Below are positions 9,819-28,158 of a stretch of 64,000 bases of DNA, in pieces. Numbering within the stretch: position 1 is the first letter of the stretch; each line of letters begins with the position of its first letter. Origin of the DNA: Nitrosopumilales archaeon (lineage in GTDB: Archaea > Thermoproteota > Nitrososphaeria > Nitrososphaerales > Nitrososphaeraceae); contig JBIQJB010000001.1 in the NCBI GenBank assembly GCA_044507735.1, forward strand, positions 220,579 through 284,578, read 5' to 3'. Below the pieces are notes generated by a model. That model worked only from the letters and a program-made list of their open reading frames with translations. It did no database searches and was not told the DNA's origin. The translations under genes were made by a program, and so were the position numbers.

Positions 9819-10187
9819 GTGGCTGCAGACAAGCTAACAGAACTCGCCAACCACAAGTACATGAACCTAGAGACTTACAGGAAGAATGGTCAGCCGGTCA
9901 GGACACCTGTGTGGTTCATGATCGATAACAATGTGATTTATGTCGTGACTACAGCTGACACCGGCAAGGTCAAGCGCTTGCGCAACAATCCTGCAGTGCG
10001 CATAATGCCAAGCGGCTTCAGGGGAGAACCCAAGGGCGAGTGGATGGAAGGAAGAGCCAGGTTTGCTGAGGGGGCTGAAGCAGAGCGGGCAATAGAGTTG
10101 CGCAAGAAAAGATATGGACTTCAGGCAAGGCTTGTTGGTCTCATCCGGGACGCGACCACTGTTATTGCTATACAGCTACTGGATTAA
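9819..10187 (+). CDS. PPOX-class F420-dependent oxidoreductase
   Basis: YMNLETYRKNGQPVRTPVWF...GKVKRLRNNPAV; GTG 9819 preferred as start. Confidence 0.85.
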   Translation: MAADKLTELANHKYMNLETYRKNGQPVRTPVWFMIDNNVIYVVTTADTGKVKRLRNNPAVRIMPSGFRGEPKGEWMEGRARFAEGAEAERAIELRKKRYGLQARLVGLIRDATTVIAIQLLD

Positions 10188-10213
10188 CAACAATTTATAA
10201 CCGACTCTGACCC

Positions 10214-13457: not shown

Positions 13458-13652
13458 GACTCATTTTCAACCGATTTTTGTACCTATTAAATCATCGTCT
13501 CGAAATTTGCGAAAACTCATTGTCGCAAAATCACCATTGCAGGGGAGAAACGTGCTCAATATAAGAGCTATGTGGTAGCACTCTATAAAATTTCGCAGGA
13601 TGGGGAACAAATGCTAAGAATTCTTTTATATTGGACACTCTACTCCGAATGT

Positions 13653-15902
13653 ATGGAGAGAAGATCCGACAGCAACCAGGATAAAGTTCTGCAACTCCAG
13701 TTTTTGGGAAGCACCGCACAAGATTCGCAGCCAAAGGTGGCCCTCTTTGCAGTAGATACGAAGGGTGGCATCACCACGATCAAAAAGCTACAATCTCTTG
13801 AAGGCAACAAGATCAGCCTTTCCGAATTGACCCGCAATGTGAAGGAAGGTGTCATCTATGGGTTTGGACCTGATATTGACGAGACCGAAGTAAGAAAAGA
13901 GATGTTGTTTACATTTAGGCCAAAAGAAAAGATCCGCGAGTGGACAGACACCGGTGTTATTGAAATCAACCCAAAGTGGCGCGACTGGATCCTGCCGATA
14001 GCGTGCGTCCACGGTGACGTTCACAGATGTCGCTTTATCTTTCCACCCATCATTACTCTTGCAGGAACGAAAACACTCGCCGCAAGTTCACCAGCGGCCC
14101 GCAGTTCTACTTTTAAAATTGCGCAGGGCGTCTCTGATCAACTCCATCCAATATACCCTGAGCTTTTTCCAATCTGCGCACCTGTGTGTAATGCCGTCGT
14201 TGAAGTTTACGAAAAAACGTGCTGCTGTTTAATCCGGCCTTTTGACATAGACGCTTTGCTTGACAGGCTAAGGGAATGGCTTGAAAGAATTCCGCCGATA
14301 CCTCCAATAGATCCGGAAGATCCGATCGGTCCGATACCCGGACCAGACCCTGCTCCATTTGGAAGAGAGGTTGCCAAGACTGCCAAATTGGCTCAGGCAA
14401 GCGCGATCAAGATTCCACTTGGCATCTTGCCACAGAGGCTTGTGGAAGATTACCAAACACTGTCCACATTGCCATATGAAAAGAGGCTTGAATACGTCAA
14501 TACCCGCGACTACCTCTATCCGATATTCTGCACATGCAGCTCCAGGAAAGTAGGCGAAACCCCGGTCAACGAAGACGGTGAATTCAGCCTCTGCTACTTC
14601 AAAGGACCGACAAGAAGCGGGTGCAGAACGACGTATTACTATAAGGTGAGGCAGTGGCAGGAGAACCAGTGGGTCTACATCTACGATGGCTCGACCACAA
14701 ATGAGTACTTCAAGGGGTCAGACACCGCTCATCTGCGCACATGGAAGGGGCTTGCGTGCCGGCCGGATGGAGGAATAAATCCCGGAGGAGACTTTGTAAT
14801 GCTGGAAAACATTGGCTCCACTCCGAGTTGGAGGCTTGACAGCCCGACACAGGATTCAGAGTTCGGCGTATCAAGTGCGAATCCTTCGGACGGCCTTACG
14901 AACATCGGCCAACCATGGGGCAAGACGCTTCATTTTAGGCTCAAGTTCAGCGAGGGGCTAAAGGCGCTCGGAGCAAAGTATTACAGGGTTAGCGTAGTCA
15001 AGGCCAACTCTAGCGGAGATCCCGAGTTGGGAGCGGTCCCGCAGCCTCTGACAAGCCCTGTTGCCTGGAGACGCTGGATCAATGCTGGCGGCCAGATCAA
15101 GACAGAGGCAGTTACGCTCGGTCCGCTAGTAGCGCCCAACGGAGCAGGCGCACTATATTTGATACCATACGAAGCTGACGCGCCACTTGGATGGCTCTGG
15201 TTCCAGTACCATCAGACATGGAATACCACCGCCTACGATAACGCCAAGCATCTTGTCATTGTAGAAATTTTTGACGCTAATGGCAACAGGCTCAAACCAA
15301 ATGGAGCGCCCGGAGGCGATATTGCCAAACCCTTCACATTCAGACGCTGGATCGACGAAGAAAACACCGTGGCCGTGAACTTTGCAGCGCTGACACACAT
15401 GTTCCACGTCGACAATATCAAGTGCTACGGCGACATCGTCGACTTTCGCAAGAACGGGGTTCCATCAACCGCCGAATGCCAGTTCATTACAGGGTGCGCA
15501 ACGGACAACTTTTCTGTCGGCATGTATGCATTCCATGTCAACGGCTTCATGAGTAGCTATCACCTCTGGTATCACAGAGGACTCAATGGTCCGAATGTGA
15601 CTCTTGAGACAGGCACCACAAATGCACCTGCCGGCATACCTCCAATTCCAAGCCCGCTCAACTCTGCAAATGCGAAGCAGTCCAATTCAAGCACATTTGA
15701 TGAAATGCTTGGACCCCACGACAAATGCTCATTCAGCGTAGAGCTCAGAGTATATCCAAAGCACACGGATGGCTTTGGGACGATCTGGGAGTACGGCGCT
15801 TCTGACACGGCTGCAGTTGCTTTGGAAAAGGTTCTCTGCATCAGCAGTCAAGCTCTCGCGATACCTGTTCGGGAGTTGTCAAAGCCGGCACCATTGCCAT
15901 AA
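13653..15902 (+). CDS. Large Cys- and Pro-rich hypothetical protein (about 749 aa)
   Basis: Long uninterrupted ORF; PPIPPIDPEDPIGPIPGPDPAPF segment; about 17 Cys; followed by a T-rich terminator. Confidence 0.85.
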   Translation: MERRSDSNQDKVLQLQFLGSTAQDSQPKVALFAVDTKGGITTIKKLQSLEGNKISLSELTRNVKEGVIYGFGPDIDETEVRKEMLFTFRPKEKIREWTDTGVIEINPKWRDWILPIACVHGDVHRCRFIFPPIITLAGTKTLAASSPAARSSTFKIAQGVSDQLHPIYPELFPICAPVCNAVVEVYEKTCCCLIRPFDIDALLDRLREWLERIPPIPPIDPEDPIGPIPGPDPAPFGREVAKTAKLAQASAIKIPLGILPQRLVEDYQTLSTLPYEKRLEYVNTRDYLYPIFCTCSSRKVGETPVNEDGEFSLCYFKGPTRSGCRTTYYYKVRQWQENQWVYIYDGSTTNEYFKGSDTAHLRTWKGLACRPDGGINPGGDFVMLENIGSTPSWRLDSPTQDSEFGVSSANPSDGLTNIGQPWGKTLHFRLKFSEGLKALGAKYYRVSVVKANSSGDPELGAVPQPLTSPVAWRRWINAGGQIKTEAVTLGPLVAPNGAGALYLIPYEADAPLGWLWFQYHQTWNTTAYDNAKHLVIVEIFDANGNRLKPNGAPGGDIAKPFTFRRWIDEENTVAVNFAALTHMFHVDNIKCYGDIVDFRKNGVPSTAECQFITGCATDNFSVGMYAFHVNGFMSSYHLWYHRGLNGPNVTLETGTTNAPAGIPPIPSPLNSANAKQSNSSTFDEMLGPHDKCSFSVELRVYPKHTDGFGTIWEYGASDTAAVALEKVLCISSQALAIPVRELSKPAPLP

Positions 15903-15991
15903 CAACAGACAAAACCTTCTCTTTTTTCTTTGATCAAAAAAAGAACCGAACATTTAATAGTCCTGCGAAAAACTTTTTTCGATTGTAGCAT

Positions 15992-18193
15992 ATGCCGAAG
16001 TTCAAGTCAACCCAAGACATATTGAGAATAATTGGTAACAAGGATCAAATTCGAAACTTTGGTGTCATTGCCCATGTAGACCACGGCAAGACGACCATGA
16101 GTGATAGCCTCCTCGCCGCGTCGGGCATCATTTCCCCGTCGGTCGCAGGTCAGGCGCTAGCCCTCGATTCCATGAAGTTGGAGCAGAACCGACAGATGAC
16201 AATCAGAGGGGCAAACGTCACGCTATTCTACGAAACGGACGGCAAGGAATACGTCATCAACATGATCGATACACCCGGCCACATTGACTTTACCGGCAGG
16301 GTGACCCGTGCGCTGCGCGCAATTGACGGAGTGGTCGTGGTGTCAGACTCTGTAGAGGGCATCATGACCCAGACAGAAACCGTCACCAGACAGGCACTTG
16401 AAGAGCGCGTGAGGCCTGTGCTTTACATCAACAAGATAGACAGACTCGTCAAGGAGCTAAAGCTGGGTCCAGAAGAGATGCAGAAGTGGCTTATGAACAT
16501 CATCAACCACTTTAACCAGCTCGTCGATATTTATGCCGAACCAGAACTCAAGGACAAGTGGAAGGTCAGCATTCAGGGCAACAGCGTTGCCTTTGGCTCT
16601 GCCAAGGATCGCTGGGGCTTTAATTTCAAAATGGCACAAAAGACAAAGATCAACTTTAAGGATGTTTATGATGCTTATACAAAGAATGACCCTGAGCTCA
16701 TAAAGTCGCTCTCGCAGAGATCGCCTCTATCAGACGCGGTGCTTGGCATGGTGGTGGAACATCACCCGCCGCCCCACGTTGCCCAGAAATACAGGATCCC
16801 AAAAATCTGGCCGGGCGACCTCAACTCTGAAACTGGCAGGGCGCTGCTGGCATGCGACGAAAAGGGCCCTGCACTAATGATGGTGACCACCATCAACGTT
16901 GACCCTCAGGCTGGAAGGGTTGCGACAGGTAGGCTCTACTCTGGCACCATAAAGGACGGTGACGAAGTCTACCTTGTCGACGCAAAGAGGACAGGAAGGG
17001 TACAATCTGTAAACATCTACATGGGTAACACCAGAGAAATAGTGAGCGTTCTGCCCGCAGGTAACATCCCTGCACTGCTAGGGCTTGACTATGCAGTCGC
17101 AGGCGAGACCATATCGACTGTCAAGGGCGTACAGCCTTTCGAATCGATCAAGTACGTGTCCGAGCCTGTGGTCACTATTGCAGTCGAGCCAAAGCACCCC
17201 AAGGACCTACCCAAGCTAGTGGAGGCGCTGCGCAGAATCACCGTGGAAGACCCCAACCTGATAGTCAAGATCAACGAGGAGACCGGCGAGACTCTGATGG
17301 CAGGCATGGGTGTACTTCACCTGGAGATCGCAACTTCGCTCCTGCAGGAAGCAGGCCTTGACATTGTCACTACACAACCACTCATCAACTACCGCGAAAC
17401 CATTCGCTCAAAGGCCGGGCCCATAATGAGCAAGTCGCCTAACAAGCACAACAAGATATTCCTCCGCGTCGAGCCCCTGCCAGACGACATCCTTGACATG
17501 ATAAGGACCGGCAAGATTAAGGAGGACATGGACAAGAAAGAGATGGCGAAGCTCTTGAGGGACAAAGGATGGAGCGCAGACGAAGCAAGGAGCGTTGCTG
17601 CAATAGATGTAAGCGGTAACATGCTGGTAGATGAGACCAAGGGTGTCCAGTTCCTTCAGGAATCGATGGATTCTATCCGGTCAGGCTTTGACGACGTGAT
17701 CAAGAATGGCCCGATAGCACATGAAGCAGTCAGAGGTGTCAAGTTTGTGCTACACCACTTTGTGCCTCACGAAGACCCTGCACACAGAGGTCTTGCTCAA
17801 CTTATGCCTGCTACGAGGAGAGCCATGTTGGGCTCGATGCTCATCGCGGACCCTGTGCTCCTTGAGCCGATACTTGGCATTGAGATCAAGTGCCCGCAGG
17901 ACCTAATCGGCGCGGTGTCAACTGTACTTTCGGGCAAGCGTGGCAAGCTGCTCAACGTAGAGCAAAAGGGGATCATTGCAATCATGCAGGGCGAAGTGCC
18001 CGCTTCAGAAACGTTCGACCTTTCTGAAAAGATGAGAGGGGCCACGGCAGGCAAGGCGATGTGGAACACCTACTTCAAGGCCTGGCAGCCAGTTCCAAAC
18101 TCGATATTCCGCACACTGGTTGCAGATGTGAGGAAGAGAAAGGGACTCAACCCTGAGCCGCCATCGCCAGACGAGTTCATAGACAAGGAATAA
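15992..18193 (+). CDS. fusA: Translation elongation factor aEF-2
   Basis: AHVDHGKTT, DTPGH, NKID; diphthamide His in HEDPAHRG. Confidence 0.98.
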   Translation: MPKFKSTQDILRIIGNKDQIRNFGVIAHVDHGKTTMSDSLLAASGIISPSVAGQALALDSMKLEQNRQMTIRGANVTLFYETDGKEYVINMIDTPGHIDFTGRVTRALRAIDGVVVVSDSVEGIMTQTETVTRQALEERVRPVLYINKIDRLVKELKLGPEEMQKWLMNIINHFNQLVDIYAEPELKDKWKVSIQGNSVAFGSAKDRWGFNFKMAQKTKINFKDVYDAYTKNDPELIKSLSQRSPLSDAVLGMVVEHHPPPHVAQKYRIPKIWPGDLNSETGRALLACDEKGPALMMVTTINVDPQAGRVATGRLYSGTIKDGDEVYLVDAKRTGRVQSVNIYMGNTREIVSVLPAGNIPALLGLDYAVAGETISTVKGVQPFESIKYVSEPVVTIAVEPKHPKDLPKLVEALRRITVEDPNLIVKINEETGETLMAGMGVLHLEIATSLLQEAGLDIVTTQPLINYRETIRSKAGPIMSKSPNKHNKIFLRVEPLPDDILDMIRTGKIKEDMDKKEMAKLLRDKGWSADEARSVAAIDVSGNMLVDETKGVQFLQESMDSIRSGFDDVIKNGPIAHEAVRGVKFVLHHFVPHEDPAHRGLAQLMPATRRAMLGSMLIADPVLLEPILGIEIKCPQDLIGAVSTVLSGKRGKLLNVEQKGIIAIMQGEVPASETFDLSEKMRGATAGKAMWNTYFKAWQPVPNSIFRTLVADVRKRKGLNPEPPSPDEFIDKE

Positions 18194-18379
18194 GAGCACT
18201 CTCCCCCTCCTCCCCCTCCGCTCATTTTTGTGCCGCTTTTTCAGGCCATGACTAGATAATGTCGTACGTTATGATTTGTTGGAAATAGCTCATGAGCAAA
18301 TGACTATGCCATCACCATGACGTTCGTCATGACGCTCAAGGGACACAAGAACCACTATATCGTCAAGCTGCTGAGAGGT
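18170..18379 (+). repeat. Copy 1 of an imperfect direct repeat of about 205 bp (aEF-2 3' end + left flank + cas1 5' end); copy 2 at 19024-19227
   Basis: ATAAGAGCA at 18190/19044; GCTCATTTTTGTG at 18220/19073; 49 bp identical at 18321-18369 vs 19169-19217. Confidence 0.92.
18329..18379 (+). pseudogene. cas1: Casposase-type cas1 relic 1 (first 17 codons only)
   Basis: MTLKGHKNHYIVKLLRG, identical to the N-terminus of relic 2; truncated just before the cupin stop codon. Confidence 0.78.
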
Positions 18380-18391
18380 ATCGTTGTTCCA

Positions 18392-18958
18392 TCACGCGTG
18401 TTCGAGCAGCTCGGTTCGATACTTCGGAGCAAGTGCCATGGCCTTCGCTTTGAACTCTGCTTGTGCTGCTTCATCAAGCATAGGTGGAGGCGTTGTGCGG
18501 GTTGCGACCGGTACACCAGCCTCCATGAAGAAATCCTCCTGACCGGGCGGTGAACATATGCAAAGCATTCTCACGGGCTGAGAGGAGGAGTTGTGAAACT
18601 GGTGCGGCGCGTTTGCTGGGATATTGATCGTCTCACCCGCCCGCACGGCACGTTTCGTGCCGCGAAAGGTAGCCTCAAGTTCGCCCTCAAGCATGATGAA
18701 AGTTTCTTCGAAGTCGTGACGGTGTGGAGGTGGTCCGCCACCCGGGGGTATATGCATGTCGATCAGGCAAAAGCGGCCTGACGTGTCTTTACCTGTGAGA
18801 AGGATGGTGTACGTATCTCCAACCACTCCAATGTGAGGAAGTTTCTGATTGGTGTTTGGCTGGGCAATGGCGAGATCGCGTTTAAGATTATCGGATGGTA
18901 AGATTGCTGAAGCTGGCGGCTCCGGCATATTTGTTTTTTTGGACATTCTGCGCTTCAA
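18392..18958 (-). CDS. Cupin domain protein (quercetin dioxygenase-like)
   Basis: PPPHRHDFEETFIMLEGE...IPANAPHQFHN cupin metal motifs. Confidence 0.9.
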   Translation of the reverse strand: MKRRMSKKTNMPEPPASAILPSDNLKRDLAIAQPNTNQKLPHIGVVGDTYTILLTGKDTSGRFCLIDMHIPPGGGPPPHRHDFEETFIMLEGELEATFRGTKRAVRAGETINIPANAPHQFHNSSSQPVRMLCICSPPGQEDFFMEAGVPVATRTTPPPMLDEAAQAEFKAKAMALAPKYRTELLEHA

Positions 18959-19023
18959 TAGACAAATGGCACCTCCAACTAATCAAATTATCGAAACATG
19001 ATTCTCTATCAAAATTGTAGGTT

Positions 19024-19227
19024 GTGGATTTAATTGACTATTGATAAGAGCAGTTTCCTTCACCCTACCCCGGCTCATTTTTGTGTCGCCTTTTAGGTTC
19101 GGCTATATCATGTTGTATGTTATAATTTGTTGGAGATAGCTTATCAATAGATGGCATAGCCATCATATCGTTCGTCATGACGCTCAAGGGACACAAGAAC
19201 CACTATATCGTCAAGCTATTGAGAGGA
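19024..19227 (+). repeat. Copy 2 of the aEF-2-end/cas1-start direct repeat
   Basis: GTGGATTTAATTGACTATTGATAAGAGCA matches the aEF-2 end GACGAGTTCATAGACAAGGAATAAGAGCA at 20/29 ungapped; homology continues into cas1. Confidence 0.9.
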
Positions 19228-19535
19228 TATGGAGCATCAAAAAGCCCGAATAATAACAAGGTTGTTTCGAAAGGAGCTAGGGATGAATTCACAGGCCCGC
19301 AAGAGATTGAAGAATGGTTTGTGACACAAATTCCGTATGAACGGATTGAAATAGCCGACAAGGTGTACGTGTCGACTGATGTTATACAACTGCTAGTTGA
19401 TCATAACATAATGTGATTTTATTGGATTTGCTTAGTAAGCCTTTTGTCAACATGAACAATATCGTGGCTAGTCTTACTTGCACAAACTATGAGGGATTGA
19501 TCTAATGTGCCATCAGTGAATTAGTAGAGAAGACG
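19177..19535 (+). pseudogene. cas1: Casposase-type cas1 relic 2 (N-terminal about 115 codons, frameshifted)
   Basis: MTLKGHKNHYIVKLLRGYG...EFTGPQEIEEWFVTQIPYERIEIADKVYVSTDVIQLLVDHNI, then after a frameshift VILLD...NMNNIVASLTCTNY; colinear with relic 3. Confidence 0.8.
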
Positions 19536-19599
19536 GCAGTTCGTCAGTTTCATGTACAGCGTCCTAACCTGTCTGCTCTCTGCCTCGCCGCTCAGACCG

Positions 19600-20094
19600 C
19601 TACATCCGGGAAGCAGTAGAAGGCTCTGCTGGCGCCGCCTTGCCAAAGTAGGCCTTGACATGTGGCCTGTACATGTAATAGAGGATTACTGCGCTGATGA
19701 TGATGATGCTTACAATAGCTCCTACATTTCCAGTCACCAGCGAGACCGAATTCAAAACTATACTGACAACTGCCAGCACAACAGTCAAGGCCCAAGCCCA
19801 GGACTTGCCCGTTAAAAGGCCGTATGCGACAATGGATGAGAAGACGCCTAGACCGAGAAGCATTGCTCCAACTGCTATCGCTGCGCTGCCAATGGCGTTG
19901 GTGGGGATCTCGGAAATATCTACACCTGGCAGCGTGTCTTGCGTCTGCTGCGATGATGTCGGACCTGCAAGCGTTGACATCACCGGTCCTAGTGCGATCA
20001 TGCCTAGCCCTCCGATTACCATGAAGCTACCGCCAATTATGTTGAGAATTGCAATAATGGTCACGCCGGTCGGGCGTGCGCAAGCTATAGTCAC
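19600..20094 (-). CDS. Four-TM membrane protein (thaumarchaeal RPTGVTIIA family)
   Basis: RPTGVTIIAILNIIGG...YGLLTGKSWAW...YYMYRPHVKAYF. Confidence 0.8.
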   Translation of the reverse strand: MTIACARPTGVTIIAILNIIGGSFMVIGGLGMIALGPVMSTLAGPTSSQQTQDTLPGVDISEIPTNAIGSAAIAVGAMLLGLGVFSSIVAYGLLTGKSWAWALTVVLAVVSIVLNSVSLVTGNVGAIVSIIIISAVILYYMYRPHVKAYFGKAAPAEPSTASRM

Positions 20095-20379
20095 ATGCTG
20101 TGAATGGGAGCATCGGATTTAAAGGCACTGGTCATGGCGATTATTGCATCAGCATTTTCGGAGCCCTCTCCGCTGACATGAGGATCCACATCCTCACTTA
20201 CGATGACGAGTACATCATTTTTTCCTTGGAGGATACCTAAATATCACCATACGGTCTACCTTGGTGTGCGGATTTTGTTGATTGTCTGTAACCAACATTC
20301 TTTGAATTCTGGGAAGAACAGAACCGATAGTAACGCAAGAAATCCCAGACGAGATAGCAACACTACGTACGTATTGTGT

Positions 20380-20795
20380 CTACTTCCATTCATATCCAAT
20401 GGCTTTGACTTGCTGTGTCGCAGGATCAAAATCAGACTCTAGAGTCAAGATCGTTCAGCCAAGAATATTTCTGCGAATTTGTGTAGCCTGAGATCATCAC
20501 CAATCCTCTTATTTTTCCGCCCTCCACCGTCCTGCCCTTTTCGTGGGCCCACCACAAGAATGTGTCTCCGTCGGAAAATGTTACAAATCCATTGTAGCTT
20601 GCATCGACGACTCCGTGGGGATATTGGGTCATTGTACCAAAACTCATGCTCTTTCCACTTGGAAATTTGCCTATCCCTCTTCCAATCATCAACATAGCTC
20701 AATTCTATTGTTATTCCTTCTACGGGATGCACCTTAGTTATCCTGAACGCTACTGCATTGCCAGTCCCTTCAAAGATTTTCTGGCCTAAAGCCAT
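20380..20795 (-). pseudogene. Frameshifted paralog of 23762-24181
   Basis: MALGQKIFEGTG...KVHPVEG / TMTQYPHGVVDASYNG...SWLN / ILTLESDFDPATQQVKAIGYEWK*; frameshifts near 20680 and 20450. Confidence 0.88.
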
Positions 20796-21092
20796 AGAAA
20801 AATGCAAATTTGCAAATTCATAAGGACTATGTTATTGGGTCTTGGTAACTTGGTGGGGGAGATCAATGTCAATTTCCTTCGCACGATCCTGCTTATCTCA
20901 TGTCAAGTTACTGCCGTCTTCTTTTGCAATATTTAGTACTCTCCACTCGTTGGAATGTTTTTGCCGGTTTTTGTGAAGTTGGATCAGTGAAATGTTCCAT
21001 TTTGAGTTGTTGTCTGTGTTTATCGATAGGAACTATAAGCAGAAGGGCGCATCCACTAATCATAAATCCGACAAAGCTAACTATTCGATAGT

Positions 21093-22592
21093 ATGGAAGA
21101 GCTGCCTCAAAGAGCTTTAATCCTTCAAGGAGGCGGCGCCTTAGGTGCCTATGAGGCAGGTGCTTTCAAGGCGCTATATGAGAAACTGATCAAAGAAGAC
21201 AGAGAGAGCAAGAACGCCGAAAGGCCTCTTTTTGACATCGTCGCGGGTTCGTCGATTGGAGCTGTAAACGCCTGCTTTCTAGTAAGTTACGTTCTCAATA
21301 ACAAACAATCCAATCCTGAGAAGAGCATTGCGGATTGTTGGAAAGATTCCGATCAGGCTCTGGTGAACTTTTGGATCGGTCTTGCCAATCACACCTTACT
21401 AGATAATGCACCAATCCGGTTTGTATGGGATTGGATTTGGAATTCAGCTAAAGCCTACCGAGATGGATGGGTTCAGTACTGGAAAAACCTTGTCGAGATC
21501 TTTCCGGGGAGCATCAGCTTCAGAAAAGAATGGCCTTTCAGGGAGTGGTATTATTCATGGCCTGACAAGTGGGGACCGCTGGCAACAGGTGAAGGAGCAA
21601 GGCGGTATTATTCATACTGGAATTCTTCTTTTACAGGTATCGAGGGGATTTTGACCGGGGGCATTCCTCAACCGGATTACAAATTTCTAAATGGGTTTGC
21701 TCCAGGCTTCTATCGCTTTGACAACACTCCCTTAATCAACACCTTAAAAAGGATGTGGTATCTAAATGGCCAGCCGATATCAACAAAGAAAGGGGAACCT
21801 AGGCTATTGTTGGTTAGCGTCGACGTGCAAGATTGCAGCTCTGCTGCGACCTTCGACAGCTACGAAAAGAAGAGAGACGGCAGTACTATAAGACATCATT
21901 TTACCGAATATGGATCGGAAAATGAGGAGCCAAAAGTAATAGAGTACGAGGGTGTCGCTACAGATCATTTGCTTGCAAGCATGTCTACAAATCAGAGATA
22001 TGAATTTCCTTCCATGCGTACTGCCGACGGAAGGCAGACACGTTACTTTTGGGACGGCGCGTACCTTAGCAATACACCATTGAGGGAAGTTATTCAACAC
22101 CATCGGGACTTTTGGCTAAAAACAGAAGGCGAGAAGAAAGTGCCAGATCTGGAAGTCTATATCATCAACCTATATCCCGCAACTGAAGCAACGGTGCCCC
22201 AAGATGCCGATTCCATCCAAGACCGGGAGATTGATATAAAGTTCCACGATAGAACAAAGTATGACTTGAAGGTTGCTGGCATGGTAACTGACTACATAGA
22301 TCTCGTGGAAAAGCTGAAGGAGCTCGCAGAATCAAAGGGATTGTCAGAACAAGTCAAGAGTATCCTTGATGGAGAAGTGGGGAAGAGCGTCAAGCGAAGC
22401 GGAGATAAGAGAAGGTATCGAAGTCTGATCGAAGGCAGGTTTGCAATCCCGAGAACTGTTCACGTCGAAAGACAGGATGATTCAAATGCAATTTATGGCA
22501 AGGCATTTGACTTTTCAGAGCATACCGTTAAGAACTTGATCGACCTAGGCTACCAAGACGGACTCAAAGCCTATGATAAGAGTGCAGAATGA
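21093..22592 (+). CDS. Patatin-like phospholipase/esterase
   Basis: LQGGGALGAYEAG, GSSIG nucleophile elbow, FWDGAY, DFS...G...G C-terminus. Confidence 0.92.
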   Translation: MEELPQRALILQGGGALGAYEAGAFKALYEKLIKEDRESKNAERPLFDIVAGSSIGAVNACFLVSYVLNNKQSNPEKSIADCWKDSDQALVNFWIGLANHTLLDNAPIRFVWDWIWNSAKAYRDGWVQYWKNLVEIFPGSISFRKEWPFREWYYSWPDKWGPLATGEGARRYYSYWNSSFTGIEGILTGGIPQPDYKFLNGFAPGFYRFDNTPLINTLKRMWYLNGQPISTKKGEPRLLLVSVDVQDCSSAATFDSYEKKRDGSTIRHHFTEYGSENEEPKVIEYEGVATDHLLASMSTNQRYEFPSMRTADGRQTRYFWDGAYLSNTPLREVIQHHRDFWLKTEGEKKVPDLEVYIINLYPATEATVPQDADSIQDREIDIKFHDRTKYDLKVAGMVTDYIDLVEKLKELAESKGLSEQVKSILDGEVGKSVKRSGDKRRYRSLIEGRFAIPRTVHVERQDDSNAIYGKAFDFSEHTVKNLIDLGYQDGLKAYDKSAE

Positions 22593-22698
22593 CTGTGCAA
22601 AATCACTATTACTCGCTTGTCTCCTTAACGATCCTTTCTTGATGAGATATACTGTCACTACCTGAATAGTTATTTTATGATTCTCAATCAATTTGAAA

Positions 22699-23591
22699 GG
22701 AATCGAGTACTATGTTTCCTTGTCTCGTCCGTGCATATTCATCCTTTCTGATCACGCGAACAAATGTCGCTTCTTCTGCAGAAGACTTGTAAACAGCAAA
22801 TTTGACTAACCCTCCGAGAGGATTAATCTGATCATAAACTAGTGTTTGGAATGAATTATGCGTCTTGTGGGCAAGGCCTTAGTGTGATTCAGGCCCAAGG
22901 TCATTAGCGAACTTCGTAATTTTCGCAGCTAGCATGCCCCTAATTCAGCAGATCATCAACGGCATCCGACACATATCGATTGTTCATTATGTCACCTCTA
23001 CCACAACGCGAGTAGTAGATATGTCTTGTTGAAAATAATTTGACATAAGTTCTAAAATAGACATATCCAACTCGTGCTTCTACGGTGAGAAATTCGCACA
23101 TGTTAGTCGAGGTATTGACTTTTGCAAGATTCTGGCTCAATCCTGTAATGACATCGCTCAAATTATACCTGTCAAGACTCTTCAGAAAGGTAGTCTGGAT
23201 CTGAAGCTTGGCGGCCATTAACTTTCTTTTGCAAATAAGGACCCTTTTCTTTCAAAGAGCATCATACTGTCCGTTGTGTGACTAGTTTCAGTTGGATTTG
23301 ACATTATTCTGAGCAGCTTGGAACCAAATTGCCAAATGAATCTGACAAGATTACATTGATGTCATCATTTGTGAGTAGCGTTATTGCATCAGTTGAAACA
23401 TAAGCCTTGCCGGCAATTGTAATCTGTTCAGAAGGAATGTGCACTATGAACCATTTTTCCATTTCAGCCTGCCCTTGTAAACCTGGTGATGTTGTCTTTC
23501 AGGCATGTTCAGTTTGCTATGAGGCCAATGGAAAAGTCGTAGCCATGCACCAACTCACATTGCAGTTTGTTCAATTGCCCATCAGCGTCAA
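22699..23591 (-). pseudogene. cas1: Casposase-type cas1 relic 3 (nearly full length; several stops and frameshifts)
   Basis: Piecewise translation: MTLMGQ...GYDFSIGL...FTGQAEMEKWFIVHIPSEQITIAGKAYVSTDAITLLTNDDINVILSDSFGNL...AKLQIQTTFLKS...TVEARVGYVYFRTYVKLF...SDAVDDLLN*G...ITKFANDLG...GLAHKTHNSFQTLVYDQINP...FAVYK...IRKDEYARTRQGNIVLDS. Confidence 0.88.
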
Positions 23592-23761
23592 CGCATCATG
23601 TGCAGCATGTAATTGCTGCGGCTCTACTCCAGTTCGCCCTATTTTTTGTGCTCAGACTGAGGGAATCAATCTTTGGAAGAGGGAATAAGAAAACAAATCA
23701 AACGCTTTGTGCCCAAAAATCCGCGTTGGACACAAGGCGACTAATCAGAGTGGAATTGCAT

Positions 23762-24181
23762 TTACTTCCATTCATATCCTGTGGACTTGATTTGCCGTGT
23801 TGCAGGGTCAAACTCTGTCTCTAGGACAATGACAAGGTTGTTCAACCAAGAATATTTCTGCGAATTTGTGTAGCCTGAGATCATCACCAATCCTCTTATT
23901 TTTCCGCCCTCCACCGTCCTGCCCTTTTCGTGGGCCCACCACAAGAATGTGTCTCCGTCGGAAAATGTTACAAATCCATTGTAGCTTGCATCGACGACTC
24001 CGTGGGGGTATTGGGTCATTGTACCAGAACCCGTGCTCCTAGCATTTGGAAACTTGCTCAATCCCCTCAGCTCCTCGACAAAGCTCAGTTCCATTGTCGT
24101 TCCTTCCACAGGGTGGACCTTCGTTATCTTGAAACTTACTACGCTGCCAGTCCCTTCAAAGACTTTTTCGTCAAAGACCAT
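23762..24181 (-). CDS. Hypothetical beta-rich protein, 139 aa (intact paralog)
   Basis: Open frame homologous to pseudogene 20380-20795; start set by alignment to the paralog. Confidence 0.8.
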   Translation of the reverse strand: MVFDEKVFEGTGSVVSFKITKVHPVEGTTMELSFVEELRGLSKFPNARSTGSGTMTQYPHGVVDASYNGFVTFSDGDTFLWWAHEKGRTVEGGKIRGLVMISGYTNSQKYSWLNNLVIVLETEFDPATRQIKSTGYEWK

Positions 24182-24653
24182 GACAAAGTGCAGAGTTTGC
24201 AGTTCATAAAGATTGCTTTCCGAGTTCTGGATTTTCTGACGGGACATCTAGGTCGCTAGCAACCGGCTAACCACGCACTATTGATTGGTGCCCAAGTTGT
24301 GATTCAAGAGTACCGTTGGCGTTTGGAGTTTGATTAAGATCGGGCCGAATCACATCGGTGACATCATTCGCTCTCATGCAGGAATCGATCTGAATCTTGC
24401 ATAGTATGAAGTTGAATCACGCACGAGACAGGTGGCGGTTTACTCAAAAGACGTACAAGAACCAACAGTAAATGGACTTGGTATCGGAACAAACAAAGTG
24501 CAGGTATTGAATGAAGGCGATTCGACAAAGATGAAGCCTCTTGAATGGATGGAAAAGAATTAATCGCGCGAAGTCCATGATATACTGAGAGTGCAGGGCC
24601 TTAACTGGATGGCGAGTGGAAAGGGTAGCTGCTGGATAATCATGACAGTTGCA

Positions 24654-25436
24654 TCAAAGTATGGCGGCAGCCTTTAGGAACATGATGACAGCTACAAAGA
24701 TCAACACAACGCCAATGAGCAGCTTCAGAGCGTTGGCACTAAATCTGGTTGTATATTTCGCGCCGATATACCCACCTATCATAGCTGTCGAACCCATCAG
24801 GCCAAGCACCAAAAAATCTACATTTCCATTTAGCAAATGACCTGCCAAGCCCGCCGCACCCATGATCGAAGATGCTGCTAGGTTTGTCCCAATAGCTACC
24901 TTTGGCTCCATCTTTAGCACCCCGATCATTGCCGGCATCCTTATGCTACCAAGTACTAATCCGACCATGCCGCCAAGAAAACCAACACCAAAGCCAATTG
25001 AGGATTCAACACCTAGATTTGGTTTACTCGCGGCCTTCTGTTCGCCCTTTCCTTTTTGAGAGCTAGTGATTAGCGAGTATGCTTCATAGGAAACAATCAA
25101 ACCAATGATGACAAAGAGAAAAGTTACTGGCACATGCTGTGTCAGCATAGAACCAAGAAAAGCACCCGCTGCACCTGTAGCAGCCATTATTGCAAAGATT
25201 CTGAGGTGCACGTTATTCTGTCGGAAGTGTCTGATTGCTGCGGTCATGGCTCCCAGAGTGCTAATGCCCATGTTCGTTCCAGCAACCATAGCTACCGTAG
25301 CTCCTGCGCCTCCAGTCGTTGTGAGAATCAGTGGAAATCTAAGCACTCCGAGAACCAGGCCTAAAAGACCTCCTACAAATCCAATGGCTAACCCAAGTGA
25401 GCCAAGCATGATAATCGTGAATAGGTCAATTGGCAT
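24654..25436 (-). CDS. Sulfite exporter TauE/SafE family protein
   Basis: About 8 TM; duplicated GFVGGLLGLVLG / GFLGGMVGLVLG and A(I)GTN motifs. Confidence 0.9.
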   Translation of the reverse strand: MPIDLFTIIMLGSLGLAIGFVGGLLGLVLGVLRFPLILTTTGGAGATVAMVAGTNMGISTLGAMTAAIRHFRQNNVHLRIFAIMAATGAAGAFLGSMLTQHVPVTFLFVIIGLIVSYEAYSLITSSQKGKGEQKAASKPNLGVESSIGFGVGFLGGMVGLVLGSIRMPAMIGVLKMEPKVAIGTNLAASSIMGAAGLAGHLLNGNVDFLVLGLMGSTAMIGGYIGAKYTTRFSANALKLLIGVVLIFVAVIMFLKAAAIL

Positions 25437-25601
25437 TTTGTTCTATCAGGATATTATCGGAAGCAATAGAGCCTATAAAAGCAGATATTCACACCACGCG
25501 CAACGAAATGATCTCCGCGCGGGATGGAACGGTCAATCAAATTGCTTCCACGACACGAGTTTGCAACTGCGCTAAAATTCATGCTGGATAAAATGAGAAG
25601 A

Positions 25602-25967
25602 CTATCCCTTGCTTTTCGACCACTTTATCATCCAGTCGATCAGCGACATGACAGATTCAACGAGCTCTTGTCCTTTTGGAGTCAGACGATATTCGACACG
25701 TGGTGGGATTTCGTTATATGCCTGCCTGCTCAGGATGCCGCTCTTTTCTAGTTCCTTGAGCCTAGAAGCCAGAGTCTTGCTGCTAATCCCTTTCAATGCC
25801 CGCCGAAACTGTTTGTACCTGACAGGTCTTGTGGTGCAGCAGAGAGGTATCAGAATTTCAAGTGTTCCCCTTTTGGTGATAATTTTGCGCAGCTTGGCTG
25901 TCTCTGCCATCAAGGAATCAACATCGTATCCGCAGCCTTCGATCATTGGGAGCTTCTTGGTTTCCAT
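25602..25967 (-). CDS. HxlR/HypR (MarR/DUF24) family transcriptional regulator with Cys residues
   Basis: GISSKTLASRLKELE...YNEIPPRVEYRLTPKGQEL; Cys in EGCG and PLCCT. Confidence 0.92.
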   Translation of the reverse strand: METKKLPMIEGCGYDVDSLMAETAKLRKIITKRGTLEILIPLCCTTRPVRYKQFRRALKGISSKTLASRLKELEKSGILSRQAYNEIPPRVEYRLTPKGQELVESVMSLIDWMIKWSKSKG

Positions 25968-25975
25968 GGTGAAAC
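25960..25975. promoter_or_regulatory. Putative HxlR operator 1 (GTTTC-N6-GAAAC)
   Basis: Perfect inverted repeat spanning the HxlR start codon; related box at 26009-26025. Confidence 0.55.
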
Positions 25976-26000
25976 TAACGATAGCAGAGTATCCTTGACA

Positions 26001-26035
26001 AGTTAAATAGTTTCCCAAGTAAACCTAAGCGGTGA
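26001..26035 (+). promoter_or_regulatory. TATA (TTAAATA), operator-like box 2 (AGTTTCCCAAGTAAACC) and SD (GGTGA) of the poly-Cys peptide
   Basis: TTAAATA 26003-26009, box 26009-26025, GGTGA 26031-26035, ATG 26040. Confidence 0.6.
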
Positions 26036-26039
26036 TAAA

Positions 26040-26126
26040 ATGGCAAAGAATAACCAACCAAAAGAAGCGGTAAAGGAATGCTGCCCAGATGGTTCGTGCA
26101 AAGGTTGTTGCTGCTGTTGCTGTTAG
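26040..26126 (+). CDS. 28-aa poly-cysteine peptide MAKNNQPKEAVKECCPDGSCKGCCCCCC (not in ORF track)
   Basis: SD GGTGA 4 nt upstream; 9 Cys using mixed TGT/TGC codons; followed by T-tract CTCTTTTTT. Confidence 0.78.
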   Translation: MAKNNQPKEAVKECCPDGSCKGCCCCCC

Positions 26127-26297
26127 GCGGTGGTGAACAACCCCTCTTTTTTCCAAAAAACCACGCGATCGGCAACAGCCGCAAATGTGCCGTAGCAAAA
26201 ACAACCAACTTGCAGCACCCGATACTAAACACCGAGTACGCAGCGGAACTCCAAACCCTAATACTTATATTAAGTTTATAAAACACCGTTATATTGT

Positions 26298-27071
26298 ATG
26301 GCATTTCTAGAAGTAAAGGATCTGCGCGTCAGCATCGACGGCAAGGAGATCCTCTCTGGACTCAATTTGAGCGTTGAAAAGGGTGAGGTCCACGCGATCA
26401 TGGGACCAAACGGTTCTGGCAAGAGCACTCTTGCAAATGCTATCCTTGGTCACCCCAAGTACAACGTCGAGTCTGGCGATATACTCGTAAATGGAGAGAG
26501 CATCCTCGACCTGTCTACCGATCTTCGAGCAAGGAAGGGTCTTTTCCTCGGATTCCAGTACCCTATAGAAATCCCTGGCGTTGGCTATAGCCACTTTTTG
26601 AGGAATGCTTACAACACTCTCGGCAAGGAAGACAAGAACCGCGAAGTGTTCCTCACTGTACGCGAGTTCCACGAGTACGTCAAAAAGAATCTTGACGCGG
26701 TAGGGCTTGACAAGTCGTTCTTGAGTCGATACCTGAACGAAGGGTTCTCCGGCGGGGAGAAGAAGCGCTCAGAAGTAATGCAGATGCTTGTCTTGAAGCC
26801 AAATATTGCGATACTCGACGAACCGGATTCAGGGCTTGACATTGATGCCGTCAAGGCGGTGGCTGAAGCAATAAACAAGCTGATAGATACTGGTGCTGGT
26901 GTGATCGTGATTACACACTATGCTAGGATCCTGCGTTACTTGACAAAACTCGATCGCGTCCACGTGGTTGCAAAGGGAAAAGTAATCCGATCGGGTGGCA
27001 AGGAGCTTTCAGAAGAGCTGGAAACAAAGGGCTATGGCTGGCTTGGGATAGAAGAAGGCAAGCCGGAATAA
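26298..27071 (+). CDS. sufC: Fe-S cluster assembly ATPase SufC
   Basis: GPNGSGKST, FQYPIEIPGV, NEGFSGGEKKR, LDEPDSGLDID, ITHY. Confidence 0.95.
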   Translation: MAFLEVKDLRVSIDGKEILSGLNLSVEKGEVHAIMGPNGSGKSTLANAILGHPKYNVESGDILVNGESILDLSTDLRARKGLFLGFQYPIEIPGVGYSHFLRNAYNTLGKEDKNREVFLTVREFHEYVKKNLDAVGLDKSFLSRYLNEGFSGGEKKRSEVMQMLVLKPNIAILDEPDSGLDIDAVKAVAEAINKLIDTGAGVIVITHYARILRYLTKLDRVHVVAKGKVIRSGGKELSEELETKGYGWLGIEEGKPE

Positions 27072-27453
27072 TAGTGAGACTGTAATTCACAGCTCTTCAC
27101 TCCTCTTTTCTCTTTCGAATATTTCCGAAATTCGGACGATGATCATCAACATAGACTCACGTGATATTGTCCAAAAACGCGACTTCTGCCTGCAGAGCGT
27201 AATCCTGGTTCTCAGTGATATTTGTCCGGGCAGCAGGTGCTGCAACCATAATGGGATACTCCGACTCGATGATTGATCTTTCAATTTCTCATCTACAAAC
27301 CATGTATTCCTGCTTAGACAACGGCAATGACAACAGGCATTATTCGGAGTTGCTATTGCAAGAATAGCTGTATATCAATTGTCTTGCAAGTGGCTGCACG
27401 CGTGAACGAATATACAATTGTTTTAAATATGGTTTGGAGGCAATTTACAGCAA

Positions 27454-28158
27454 ATGTCCGAAACACCCTCTTCTGCTGCTACTACTACTCCCACTGCAAC
27501 TACTTTCTTGAACTTTTCATTCTTCAAGGTGGATCCAAAGTGGCGCTGGCTCAACGAGATCGGCAAGGATGAAGCGGCCAAAGAGTTTGCAAACCTGGTC
27601 GAAGTGGCGAACACTAAGATGAAAGTGCGAACATATTCGACTCTGGGTCTGCGTGAAGATTCTGACTTTATGATCTGGATGATATCTGATTCGGTCGAAA
27701 AGATGCAAGTCATGACTTCCAAGATCTATTCGACAGTGCTTGGAAAATACATCACACCGTCGTATGTCTTTTTGTCTGCAGCAAGACCATCAATCTATTC
27801 TTCGAGGGTTACGCCCGGCTTTATGACCGACGAGCAGCCTATGAAATACTGCATCGTCTACCCTTTCGTAAAGTCACGCGAGTGGTACTTGTTGCCATTT
27901 GAAGAGCGGAAGAAAATGATGGAAGAGCACATCATGGTGGGTCGAAAATTTCCGCAGGTGAGGCTCAATACCACATACTCTTTTGGTCTTGACGATCAGG
28001 ATTTCATGCTGGCATTTGAGACTCCCGATTTGATGGCATTCCTGGAGCTGATAATGCAGTTGCGGGAAACAAAGGTGAGCAAGTACGTTGTCCGAGATAC
28101 TCCTATGATTGTCTGCGTTTATAAGGGAGTCGAGGACATCATCAAAAGTCTGGGATAA
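27454..28158 (+). CDS. Chlorite dismutase/coproheme decarboxylase (ChdC/HemQ) family protein
   Basis: VYPFVKSREWYLL...MEEHIMVG...VRLNTTYSFGLDDQDF. Confidence 0.88.
   Translation: MSETPSSAATTTPTATTFLNFSFFKVDPKWRWLNEIGKDEAAKEFANLVEVANTKMKVRTYSTLGLREDSDFMIWMISDSVEKMQVMTSKIYSTVLGKYITPSYVFLSAARPSIYSSRVTPGFMTDEQPMKYCIVYPFVKSREWYLLPFEERKKMMEEHIMVGRKFPQVRLNTTYSFGLDDQDFMLAFETPDLMAFLELIMQLRETKVSKYVVRDTPMIVCVYKGVEDIIKSLG

What the first reader, a model, noticed from the sequence alone, without database searches (positions are those of the whole stretch)
18170..24600. Stack of casposon relics at the aEF-2 3' end: three hidden casposase cas1 copies plus cargo
Seen: 135 bp after the aEF-2 stop, a 17-codon MTLKGHKNHYIVKLLRG stub; a longer frameshifted copy at 19177-19535; and a nearly full-length decayed copy on minus at 22699-23591. 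The third copy retains Cas1 hallmarks (VEAR Glu, LLN*G for LLNYG, GLAH His, LVYD) but has IE>IN in the DxxEP motif. No CRISPR array, cas2 or PolB is visible. Established: family-1 casposons of Thaumarchaeota encode a Cas1 integrase and insert at the 3' end of aEF-2. Inference: repeated casposon integration and erosion left cargo (cupin, membrane protein, patatin, paralog pair), so the locus may act as a Cas1-driven gene-capture hotspot.
Basis: partly seen in the sequence, partly recalled or inferred. Interest (0 to 1): 0.82.

Follow-up and report, generated by a model that had tools for sequence, protein, structure and literature searches.

The report
Dead casposon relics beside aEF-2
Three broken copies of a casposon integrase gene sit just after the elongation factor 2 gene of a soil ammonia-oxidising archaeon, which is the known landing site of these transposons, so this is an old transposon graveyard and not a new system.

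Summary
A 17-codon casposase stub starts 135 nt after the aEF-2 stop (18329-18379). A frameshifted N-terminal copy lies at 19177-~19502. A decayed, near full-length inverted copy lies at 22699-23591, with 7 stops, 2 frameshifts and DLIEP changed to DQINP.

All three belong to the family-1 casposase clade, not to CRISPR-type Cas1. Copies 1 and 2 each keep the whole casposon left end: aEF-2-tail target copy, TIR, leader and cas1 5' end. They lie in direct order, as tandem re-use of one target predicts.

The genome holds no intact casposase, PolB, Cas2 or right TIR, so nothing here can move. Copies 1 and 2 are old. They are shared colinearly with metagenome contigs L115/L116 and diverge faster (69-74% identity) than the neighbouring genes (89-94%).

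The gene-capture reading is not shown. The cupin looks bacterial. Patatin sits in another context in G193. The membrane and 161-aa genes belong to multi-copy accessory families. None of the four occurs in 19 loci with a full-length casposase.

aEF-2 targeting, tandem arrays, inactivated copies and solo-TIR remnants are all published. This is a new member of a known kind, of modest interest.

The parts
15992..18193 (+). aEF-2 gene. Its last ~20 nt (about 18173-18193) are the casposase target.
   Evidence: Pfam domains. 88-99.7% aa identity to aEF-2 of relatives. Target role inferred from the TSDs of the G101 and G107 elements and from PMC4046053 and PMC6563490.
18194..18238 (+). Left terminal inverted repeat of relic 1 (CACTCTCCCCC...TTTGTGCCGCTT), directly after the stop codon.
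   Evidence: Aligns with the left arm of the 44-nt, 100% complementary TIR of the intact G101 element. nhmmer left-end profile E 4e-50; this copy is in the model.
18239..18328 (+). Leader of relic 1, between the TIR and the casposase start.
   Evidence: Conserved block ACTAG.TAAT..CGTACGTTATGATTTGTTGGAAA shared with G003, G101, G144, G188 and L092.
18329..18379 (+). Casposase stub, copy 1: 17 codons, truncated.
   Evidence: The same truncation junction is present in L115.
18392..18958 (-). Cupin gene (188 aa), intact and bacterial-like, lodged between the two left ends.
   Evidence: Cupin_2 E 4.5e-20. 93.8% nt identity to L115. Not found in 5 close relatives. The 6 organism names among the best 120 homologues are all bacterial. 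GC 53.8%.
19027..19047 (+). Decayed copy of the aEF-2 tail: a target-site duplication between relic 1 and relic 2.
   Evidence: Direct repeat 18173-18204 / 19027-19058 at 72%. The likeness starts where the 17-20 nt TSDs of G101 and G107 start.
19048..19176 (+). Left TIR and leader of relic 2.
   Evidence: Direct repeats D8 (85%) and D5 (76%) with relic 1. nhmmer E 1.4e-43; this copy is in the model.
19177..19502 (+). Casposase copy 2: residues 1 to ~113, one frameshift near 19410, then truncated.
   Evidence: 71.6% identity to P0034 over 109 columns. GC 39.7%. 74.4% nt identity to L115.
19600..20094 (-). Membrane protein (164 aa, DUF2127/DUF7144-like), intact.
   Evidence: Member of a multi-copy family: 51 of 72 genus genomes, 4 copies in this genome.
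20383..20826 (-). Pseudogene copy (R1) of the 161-aa gene. It is the positional orthologue of the intact gene in L115.
   Evidence: Direct repeats D1, D2 and D4 with 23755-24212. Stops inside. Colinear with L115.
21093..22592 (+). Patatin-like phospholipase gene (499 aa), intact.
   Evidence: Patatin E 6e-16. The homology block with G193:C20 is only 21050-22639.
22699..23591 (-). Casposase copy 3: residues 1-300, 7 stops, 2 frameshifts, acidic E of DxxEP replaced by N, C-terminal ~55 residues lost.
   Evidence: 51.5% identity to P0034 over 293 columns. GC 41.4%.
23592..23752 (-). Possible leader and decayed TIR of copy 3 (CACTCT ... ATTTTTGGGC). Weak.
   Evidence: Seen by eye. Not detected by the left-end profile. 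It ends 2 nt from where the R1/R2 likeness stops.
23762..24247 (-). Intact 161-aa gene (R2) with no Pfam family.
   Evidence: The family is in 34 of 72 genus genomes, often multi-copy and with pseudogenes.
24248..26231 (.). Rest of the variable island (TauE-like exporter 24654-25436, HxlR regulator 25602-26018). Conserved synteny resumes at 26232 (SufC).

Best explanation
The 8 kb between the aEF-2 stop (18193) and the Suf operon (26232) is a variable island built on dead family-1 casposons.

A casposase is a Cas1-family integrase. It inserts its element at the last ~20 nt of aEF-2 and duplicates that target. A second element using the same target pushes the earlier one downstream, with one target copy left between them.

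The window shows that pattern.
- Left end 1 (TIR, leader, 17 codons) abuts aEF-2.
- A decayed target copy at 19027-19047 follows, then left end 2 with ~113 codons of casposase.
- A third casposase pseudogene lies 4.5 kb out in inverted orientation. It is the most decayed and the furthest from aEF-2.
- Deletions removed the polymerase, the other core genes and all right ends.

Nothing here can move, and the genome has no helper element. Relics 1 and 2 drift neutrally and are older than the split from the L115/L116 lineage. The intact genes between them are ordinary accessory genes of mixed origin that came to lie in this recombination-prone spot. They are not shown to be casposon cargo.

Shown: homology, clade, left-end anatomy, decay, sharing with relatives, absence of partners.
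Inferred: two or three separate integrations, their order, and loss by deletion.
For: 1. Only casposase-type Cas1 ORFs of relatives hit the region. The ORFs of the 11 CRISPR-type Cas1 loci sent in the same call give nothing at E 1e-3.
2. In the tree, copies 2 and 3 sit inside the casposase clade, SH-aLRT 99 against 6 CRISPR-type Cas1. The best solved relative of the intact homologue is 6opm_A, E 3.7e-34. I recall this entry as the Methanosarcina mazei casposase; the file labels it Cas1.
3. Direct repeats run from 18173-18378 to 19027-19226. They cover the aEF-2 tail, TIR, leader and cas1 5' end and align with the left ends of intact elements.
4. The G101 element has a 44-nt perfect TIR and a 20-nt TSD made of the aEF-2 tail. 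G107 has 187-nt TIRs and a 20-nt TSD.
5. The likeness to the aEF-2 tail upstream of copy 2 begins where those TSDs begin.
6. G193 and G188 have intact casposases where the window has stub 1. The G193 and G188 DNA aligns without a break from aEF-2 up to 18379-18394.
7. Identity to L115 is 92.5% for aEF-2, 93.8% for cupin and 89.4% for the membrane gene. It is 71.3% and 68.9% for the two left ends and 74.4% for copy 2.
8. Decay rises with distance from aEF-2. Copy 2 is 71.6% identical to P0034 and copy 3 is 51.5%.
9. The genome has no other Cas1, no PolB, no Cas2 and no further left end in either orientation.
10. aEF-2 targeting, tandem arrays, inactivated copies and solo-TIRs are published: PMC4046053, PMC4779613 and PMC6563490 (passages read).
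Against: - No right TIR is found. For relic 1 it should abut the target copy at 19027, yet the 68 nt there show no likeness to a TIR and are 91% conserved with L115, probably as the cupin promoter. The tandem model therefore needs a deletion or replacement ending almost exactly at that border.
- Stub 1 and copy 2 are 92% alike over 66 nt. That is more than two independently decaying relics of this age should be, so gene conversion has to be assumed.
- Copy 3's terminus is not statistically detectable.
- Copy 3 is absent from L115, so its age relative to the split is not fixed.
- Copies 2 and 3 group with the same intact protein P0034 (SH-aLRT 88), so they could descend from one element rather than two.
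Confidence: 0.68

Rival explanations
1. The copy 1 / copy 2 repeat was made by homologous recombination, not by a second casposase-mediated insertion. Either a circular DNA carrying a left-end copy plus the cupin integrated Campbell-style, or an unequal crossover occurred. The same may hold for the 450-nt repeat R1/R2 around patatin and copy 3.
For: Both inserts are flanked by long direct repeats and by no right TIR: about 205 nt around the cupin and about 450 nt around patatin plus copy 3. The cupin is a tight single-gene block of bacterial type. Patatin also travels as a single-gene block.
Against: The repeat begins just where a casposase TSD would begin, which is a coincidence under this model. 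Tandem casposon arrays with one shared TSD are documented (PMC4779613, PMC6563490). No donor circle or second cupin locus was found.
Confidence: 0.18
2. Stub 1 and copy 3 are the two ends of one element with long TIRs that include the casposase 5' end, as in G107. Copy 2 is then a separate or nested piece.
For: In G107 a stub next to aEF-2 is the 187-nt TIR partner of an inverted, frameshifted casposase 5.2 kb away, with 20-nt TSDs. Copy 3 is inverted in the same way.
Against: No inverted repeat joins 18194-18379 to 23540-23760. L115/L116 have stub 1 and copy 2 but no copy 3. G193 and G188 have a forward intact casposase in the place of stub 1.
Confidence: 0.07
3. One reading: the cupin, membrane protein, patatin and the paralogue pair are cargo left by the casposons, and the site works as a Cas1-driven gene-capture hotspot.
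For: By position the genes lie where the bodies of the elements once were. Family-1 casposons carry element-specific genes (PMC6563490, passage read). A membrane-protein homologue lies 1.5 kb from a casposase stub in G191 and near a relic in G139:C131. The island is missing at this place in G014, and its GC is 45.7% against 48.5% for the genome.
Against: 0 of 19 loci with a full-length casposase hold any of the four genes; several of those flanks are cut by contig ends. Patatin in G193 lies on a contig where the casposase search listed no match. The membrane-161-aa pair in G144:C59 likewise has no listed casposase match. No TIR pair encloses any of the genes.
Confidence: 0.12
4. The fragments are remains of a lost CRISPR adaptation module.
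For: Pfam names the match Cas_Cas1, and sources label the intact homologues 'CRISPR-associated'.
Against: Clade split with SH-aLRT 99. No hit from CRISPR-type Cas1 of relatives. No Cas2 in the genome. No tandem array in the window. TIR and aEF-2-tail context.
Confidence: 0.01

Closest known systems
Family-1 (thaumarchaeal) casposons at the ef-2 gene, including the tandem pair NitNF5-C1/C2 (PMC6563490; PMC4046053)
   Same: Cas1-family integrase of the same clade. Target in the 3'-distal part of aEF-2. TIR directly after the target. Repeated use of the same target giving elements in tandem.
   Different: Here nothing is intact. There is no protein-primed PolB, no conserved core genes and no right TIRs. 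Only 17, ~113 and ~300 codons of the integrase remain. The host belongs to the Nitrososphaera-like genus, not to Nitrosopumilus.
Published Nitrososphaera casposon NitEve-C1 (PMC6563490); named casposase P0010
   Same: The closest named relative of the intact homologues: P0010 is 75% identical to the G003 casposase. An element with the published gene content (Cas1, HEPN, PolB) is in G101, and its TIR is homologous to the window's left TIRs.
   Different: That element is complete and is described as intergenic. Copy 2 is 58.7% identical to its casposase and copy 3 is 40.3%.
Solo-TIRs and inactivated tandem casposons of Methanosarcina (PMC4779613), compared there with Tn7 islands
   Same: Remnants of casposons persist at the ancestral site across strains. 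One member of a tandem pair is inactivated. Elements often break assemblies.
   Different: Those are family-2 elements in tRNA-Leu or intergenic sites. Here the relics keep pieces of the integrase gene and are interleaved with intact host-type genes.

Membership tests
Family-1 casposon | Cas1-family integrase that groups with casposases, not with CRISPR-associated Cas1 | tested here: met
   Tree of 36 rows. Copies 2 and 3 lie inside the casposase clade, SH-aLRT 99 against 6 CRISPR-type Cas1. Only casposase-type ORFs hit the region. Copy 3 has a long branch (1.26), so its exact place inside the clade is unsure.
Family-1 casposon | [quoted passage not shown] | tested here: not met
   No PF03175 match above cut-off in the genome. 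No tblastn or tblastx hit of the G101 PolB in the window. These are relics, not elements.
Family-1 casposon | Terminal inverted repeats at both ends | tested here: inconclusive
   Left TIRs of relics 1 and 2 are homologous to the perfect TIR of G101. No right-hand inverted copy is found anywhere in the genome. The TIR of copy 3 is only suggested by eye.
Family-1 casposon | Target-site duplication flanking the element | tested here: inconclusive
   One decayed copy of the aEF-2 tail at 19027-19047, matching 17 of 24 positions. No further copy within 3 mismatches.
Family-1 casposon | Integration at the 3'-distal end of aEF-2 | tested here: met
   Left end 1 starts at the base after the stop codon. 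The same holds in G003, G193, G188, L092 and L099.
Active Cas1/casposase enzyme | Intact reading frame with the metal-binding Glu, His and acidic DxxE(P) residues. The catalytic roles are recalled from Cas1 literature, not tested. | tested here: not met
   Copy 3 keeps E (TVEAR) and H (GLAH) but has N for E in DxxEP, with 7 stops and 2 frameshifts. Copies 1 and 2 lack the catalytic half.
CRISPR-Cas adaptation module | Cas1 together with Cas2 next to a repeat array | tested here: not met
   No Cas2 in the genome. No tandem array in the window and no repeat family in 17800-25200.

The most novel reading that the evidence does not exclude
Casposon relics stay useful long after the integrase is gone. 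The leftover target copies and TIRs next to aEF-2 act as landing pads and recombination substrates, so foreign single genes accumulate there. The bacterial-type cupin, lodged exactly between left end 1 and the old target copy, would be one such gene. Elements could also be seeded elsewhere, since the G101 and G146 casposons lie far from aEF-2 yet are flanked by aEF-2-tail-like repeats. A population variant that departs from the window right after the old target copy (loose end at 19047 in run X9) would then be turnover still going on.
Probability: 0.12. Interest if true: 0.6.

Novelty: new member of a known kind. Interest (0 to 1): 0.3.

Why it matters
It adds a clear, datable example of casposon decay in the soil ammonia oxidisers. 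Left-end remnants at aEF-2 turn out to be common in this genus: 11 of 21 flanks examined. This mirrors the solo-TIRs known from Methanosarcina. It warns annotators that 'CRISPR-associated Cas1' fragments in a genome without CRISPR are transposon relics. It does not open a new mechanism. The only lead beyond the known is whether relic target copies keep attracting DNA.

Tried and rejected
- Right ends: exact and mismatch searches for the TIR core and for the aEF-2 tail, and nhmmer profiles of the left end over the whole genome on both strands, found nothing beyond the two known left ends. One marginal TIR-only hit (E 0.041) lies outside the window and was not followed.
- Core genes: tblastx of the G101, G003 and G107 elements against the window found only casposase likeness.
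- P0034 contig: the metagenome scan for the intact nearest relative did not return it; the best hit was 77%. The cargo of that lineage stays unknown.
- Rfam: no RNA family in 15000-28000. No tRNA in the window.
- Earlier findings of the scan: none for this genome.
- RNA: one compost RNA-library run has contigs on 18232-18383 and 18471-18795. These are contigs of a metagenome library in which DNA may be present, so this is no proof of transcription. The parts without cover say nothing.
- Idea that the TIR T-tracts serve as the aEF-2 terminator: not testable here.
- No structure or complex was predicted. Sequence evidence sufficed.
- Supplementary tables of the three papers (TSD and TIR lists) were not available and may list relics or TSD lengths that bear on the comparison.


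Full report
**What is there**

The window is G000:C17:220579-284578 of a 2.33-Mb genome that is 97% complete. aEF-2 occupies 15992-18193. Downstream lie, in order:
- a 17-codon casposase stub (18329-18379, +);
- a cupin gene (18392-18958, -);
- a longer casposase fragment (19177-~19502, +);
- a DUF2127-like membrane protein (19600-20094, -);
- a pseudogene copy of a 161-aa gene (20383-20826, -);
- a patatin gene (21093-22592, +);
- a decayed casposase (22699-23591, -);
- the intact 161-aa gene (23762-24247, -);
- a TauE-like exporter and an HxlR regulator;
- SufC from 26298.

**Check of the observation**

All three Cas1-like pieces are real.
- Pfam Cas_Cas1, searched in six frames over the whole genome, finds only this locus: 26.9 bits, E 2e-6, on window 22979-23281, with a weaker neighbouring piece.
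- I sent the ORFs of 21 Cas1 loci of relatives to tblastn. Only three casposase-type proteins (L017, L018, L019) hit the region. The ORFs of the 11 CRISPR-type Cas1 loci in that set gave nothing at E 1e-3.
- Copy 2 matches residues 1-85 at 64-71% (E 9e-31) and goes on in a second frame to about residue 113. Copy 3 matches residues 1-300 in three frames, summed E 3e-48.
- Copy 3 has 7 stops and 2 frameshifts.
- The stub is homologous too. The DNA of G193:C98 and G188:C25 aligns without a break from aEF-2 up to 18379-18394, and there an intact casposase continues.
- Contigs of runs from three other studies bridge the junctions stub-cupin, cupin-copy 2, patatin-copy 3 and copy 3-161-aa gene, so the arrangement is not an assembly artefact.

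**Which Cas1**

A tree of 36 rows puts copies 2 and 3 inside the casposase clade, separated from six CRISPR-type Cas1 of the same archaeal family with SH-aLRT 99. It was a quick search, and copy 3 sits on a long branch. Their nearest intact relative is the metagenome protein P0034: 71.6% over 109 columns for copy 2 and 51.5% over 293 columns for copy 3. The other casposases score 55-66% and 36-41%. The best solved relative of the intact homologue is 6opm_A (E 3.7e-34), which I recall as the Methanosarcina mazei casposase. The clade is large, with 1029 proteins at E 1e-10. The organism names that sources give include Nitrososphaera, Nitrosopumilaceae and Nitrosarchaeum.

**Anatomy of the ends**

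The stretch 18173-18378 is repeated in direct order at 19027-19226. The repeat covers the last ~21 nt of aEF-2 (72%), a TIR (85%), a leader (76%) and the first 17 codons (92%).

These parts align with the left ends of intact elements in G003, G101, G144, G188, G193 and L092. In G101 the same TIR is a perfect 44-nt inverted repeat at both ends of an 11.3-kb element holding casposase, a HEPN protein, a NACHT-pentapeptide protein and PolB. That element is flanked by a 20-nt direct repeat that is an aEF-2-tail look-alike. In G107 a 5.6-kb element next to aEF-2 has 187-nt TIRs, which include the first ~33 codons of the casposase, and a 20-nt target duplication.

The window therefore holds two complete left ends in tandem, with one decayed target copy between them. 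No right end exists in the window or the genome. No PolB, no Cas2 and no other Cas1 exist in the genome either.

**Age**

Two near-identical metagenome contigs, L115 and L116 (aEF-2 99.7% aa), are colinear with the window from upstream of aEF-2 through stub 1, cupin, copy 2, the membrane gene and the 161-aa gene, at 86% nt overall. The stub-cupin junction is the same in both.

Identity by segment:

| Segment | nt identity to L115 |
|---|---|
| aEF-2 | 92.5% |
| cupin | 93.8% |
| membrane gene | 89.4% |
| left end 1 | 71.3% |
| left end 2 | 68.9% |
| copy 2 | 74.4% |

The relics therefore drift without constraint and predate the split, while the genes between them are kept by selection. Copy 3, patatin, the second 161-aa copy, TauE and HxlR are not in L115. 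L115 has other genes there, among them a DDE transposase.

GC is 39.7% for copy 2 and 41.4% for copy 3, against 48.5% for the genome. That is at or below about the 5th percentile of 1-kb windows, which lies at 42.9%.

**The genes in between**

- Cupin: not found in five close relatives (G193, G014, G148, G135, G191). Of its best 120 homologues, the six that carry an organism name are all bacterial (Dormibacteraeota, Acidobacteria, Elarobacter) at 76-85% identity. Its GC is 53.8%.
- Patatin: the family occurs in 33 of 72 genus genomes. The nearest copy (G193:C20, 84% aa) shares only 21050-22639 with the window and lies in a different context.
- Membrane protein: 51 of 72 genus genomes, with 4 copies in this genome. 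The 161-aa protein: 34 of 72. Both are patchy, multi-copy families. The two are also neighbours in G144:C59, a contig where the casposase search listed no match.
- A membrane-protein homologue does lie 1.5 kb from a casposase stub in G191 and near a relic in G139:C131.
- None of the four genes occurs in 19 loci with a full-length casposase. Several of those flanks are cut by contig ends.

These tallies include the unpublished genomes G127, G140, G143, G180 and G181. No single claim rests on them.

**The locus among relatives**

None of the window's downstream genes follows aEF-2 in 22 relatives. Against the closest complete genome, G014 (aEF-2 96% aa), synteny resumes only at 26232, which lies 127 kb from aEF-2 in G014. 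The genes that follow aEF-2 in G014 lie on another contig (C49) of this genome. The aEF-2 3' end is therefore a breakpoint.

Eleven of 21 relatives' aEF-2 flanks match the casposon left-end profile at E 0.01 or better, mostly from the first bases after the stop codon. One of the eleven is in the model. In the casposase search, 27 of 71 genus genomes had a match at E 1e-5. These include weaker matches to CRISPR-type Cas1 and many short N- or C-terminal casposase stubs.

**Explanation**

The best reading (0.68) is repeated casposase-mediated integration at the aEF-2 tail, followed by erosion, with the oldest copy furthest out.

For it:
- the repeat starts where the target duplications of intact elements start;
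- intact casposases stand at the place of stub 1 in G193 and G188;
- decay rises with distance from aEF-2;
- tandem arrays have been published.

Against it:
- the right TIR of relic 1 is missing just where it should abut the old target copy;
- stub 1 and copy 2 are 92% alike over 66 nt, which needs gene conversion;
- copies 2 and 3 share one nearest relative.

Rivals:
- duplication by homologous recombination (0.18);
- one G107-like element with long TIRs (0.07);
- true cargo or gene capture (0.12);
- CRISPR remnants (0.01).

**What is known**

- PMC4046053 (passages read): the three complete thaumarchaeal casposons target the 3'-distal region of aEF-2. Tandem islands with inactivated copies and deteriorating remnants exist.
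- PMC4779613 (passages read): tandem casposons sharing one TSD, one copy inactivated. Solo-TIRs in 43 M. mazei strains that lack a casposon at that site.
- PMC6563490 (passages read): ef-2 is the commonest target. NitNF5-C1 and NitNF5-C2 lie in tandem in one ef-2 gene. NitEve-C1 carries a HEPN nuclease and is called intergenic.

The finding is thus a further, decayed instance of a described phenomenon in another genus. I found no paper describing these relics in Nitrososphaera (searches; supplements not seen).

**Verdict**

Novelty: new member of a known kind. Interest: 0.3.

Noticed in passing
L023:4791-4810 and 16140-16159 (G101); upstream of the casposase in L084 (G146a): Complete casposons that lie 440 kb (G101) and about 157 kb (G146) from aEF-2 are still flanked by sequences copying the aEF-2 tail. 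In G101 this is 18 of 20 nt of the TSD, and the likeness runs 7 nt further upstream. The literature calls such a site 'intergenic'. It may be a displaced old target copy.
   Followed up: partly
L024:4623-4809 and 10017-10203 (G107): A 5.6-kb element next to aEF-2 has 187-nt TIRs (91%) that include the first ~33 codons of the casposase. A 'stub' beside aEF-2 can therefore be a TIR arm rather than a separate relic. The element's casposase is frameshifted.
   Followed up: yes
window 18313-18378 vs 19161-19226: Stub 1 and the start of copy 2 are 92% alike. The orthologous stub in L115 is only 86% alike, and the start of L115's copy 2 is far more changed. This suggests gene conversion between the two relics in this lineage.
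   Followed up: partly
window 23752-23755 and 20373: The likeness between the two 161-aa gene copies (R1, R2) stops 2 nt from the putative terminus (CACTCT) of copy 3. Patatin plus copy 3 are thus flanked by a ~450-nt direct repeat.
   Followed up: partly
window 18193 and 19047 (run X9): One contig follows aEF-2 to its stop codon and then continues with a hairpin plus T-run unlike the window, possibly an empty site. Another follows the window up to the old target copy and then continues with a different, TIR-like sequence. These are population variants at both target copies.
   Followed up: no
aEF-2 3' flanks of relatives (L028-L047): Eleven of 21 flanks match the casposon left-end profile right after the stop codon. 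L034, L035 and L037 show decayed stubs by eye. Several aEF-2 contigs end within a few hundred bases of the stop codon.
   Followed up: partly
L113:6043-7234: A metagenome contig has two casposase N-terminal fragments head to head directly after aEF-2: residues 4-93 reversed, then 1-228 forward.
   Followed up: no
L090 (G191), 570 nt between the leader and the casposase start: A 190-aa ORF is inserted between a truncated start (ATGACG) and a second casposase start. A homologue of the window's membrane protein follows about 1.5 kb beyond the casposase stub, an architecture like the window's.
   Followed up: partly
window 13572-15902: A 776-aa ORF directly upstream of aEF-2 has no Pfam family. 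It is conserved in L115/L116 at 88% aa.
   Followed up: no
G000 contigs C22, C40, C18, C46, C3: A ~1-kb sequence downstream of aEF-2 in G014 (L028 query 13677-14735) has five copies at 73-76% in this genome. It is probably an insertion sequence or a multi-copy gene.
   Followed up: no
window 18232-18383 and 18471-18795: Contigs of one compost RNA-library run match the leader-stub region and the cupin without differences. This is only a hint of transcription.
   Followed up: no
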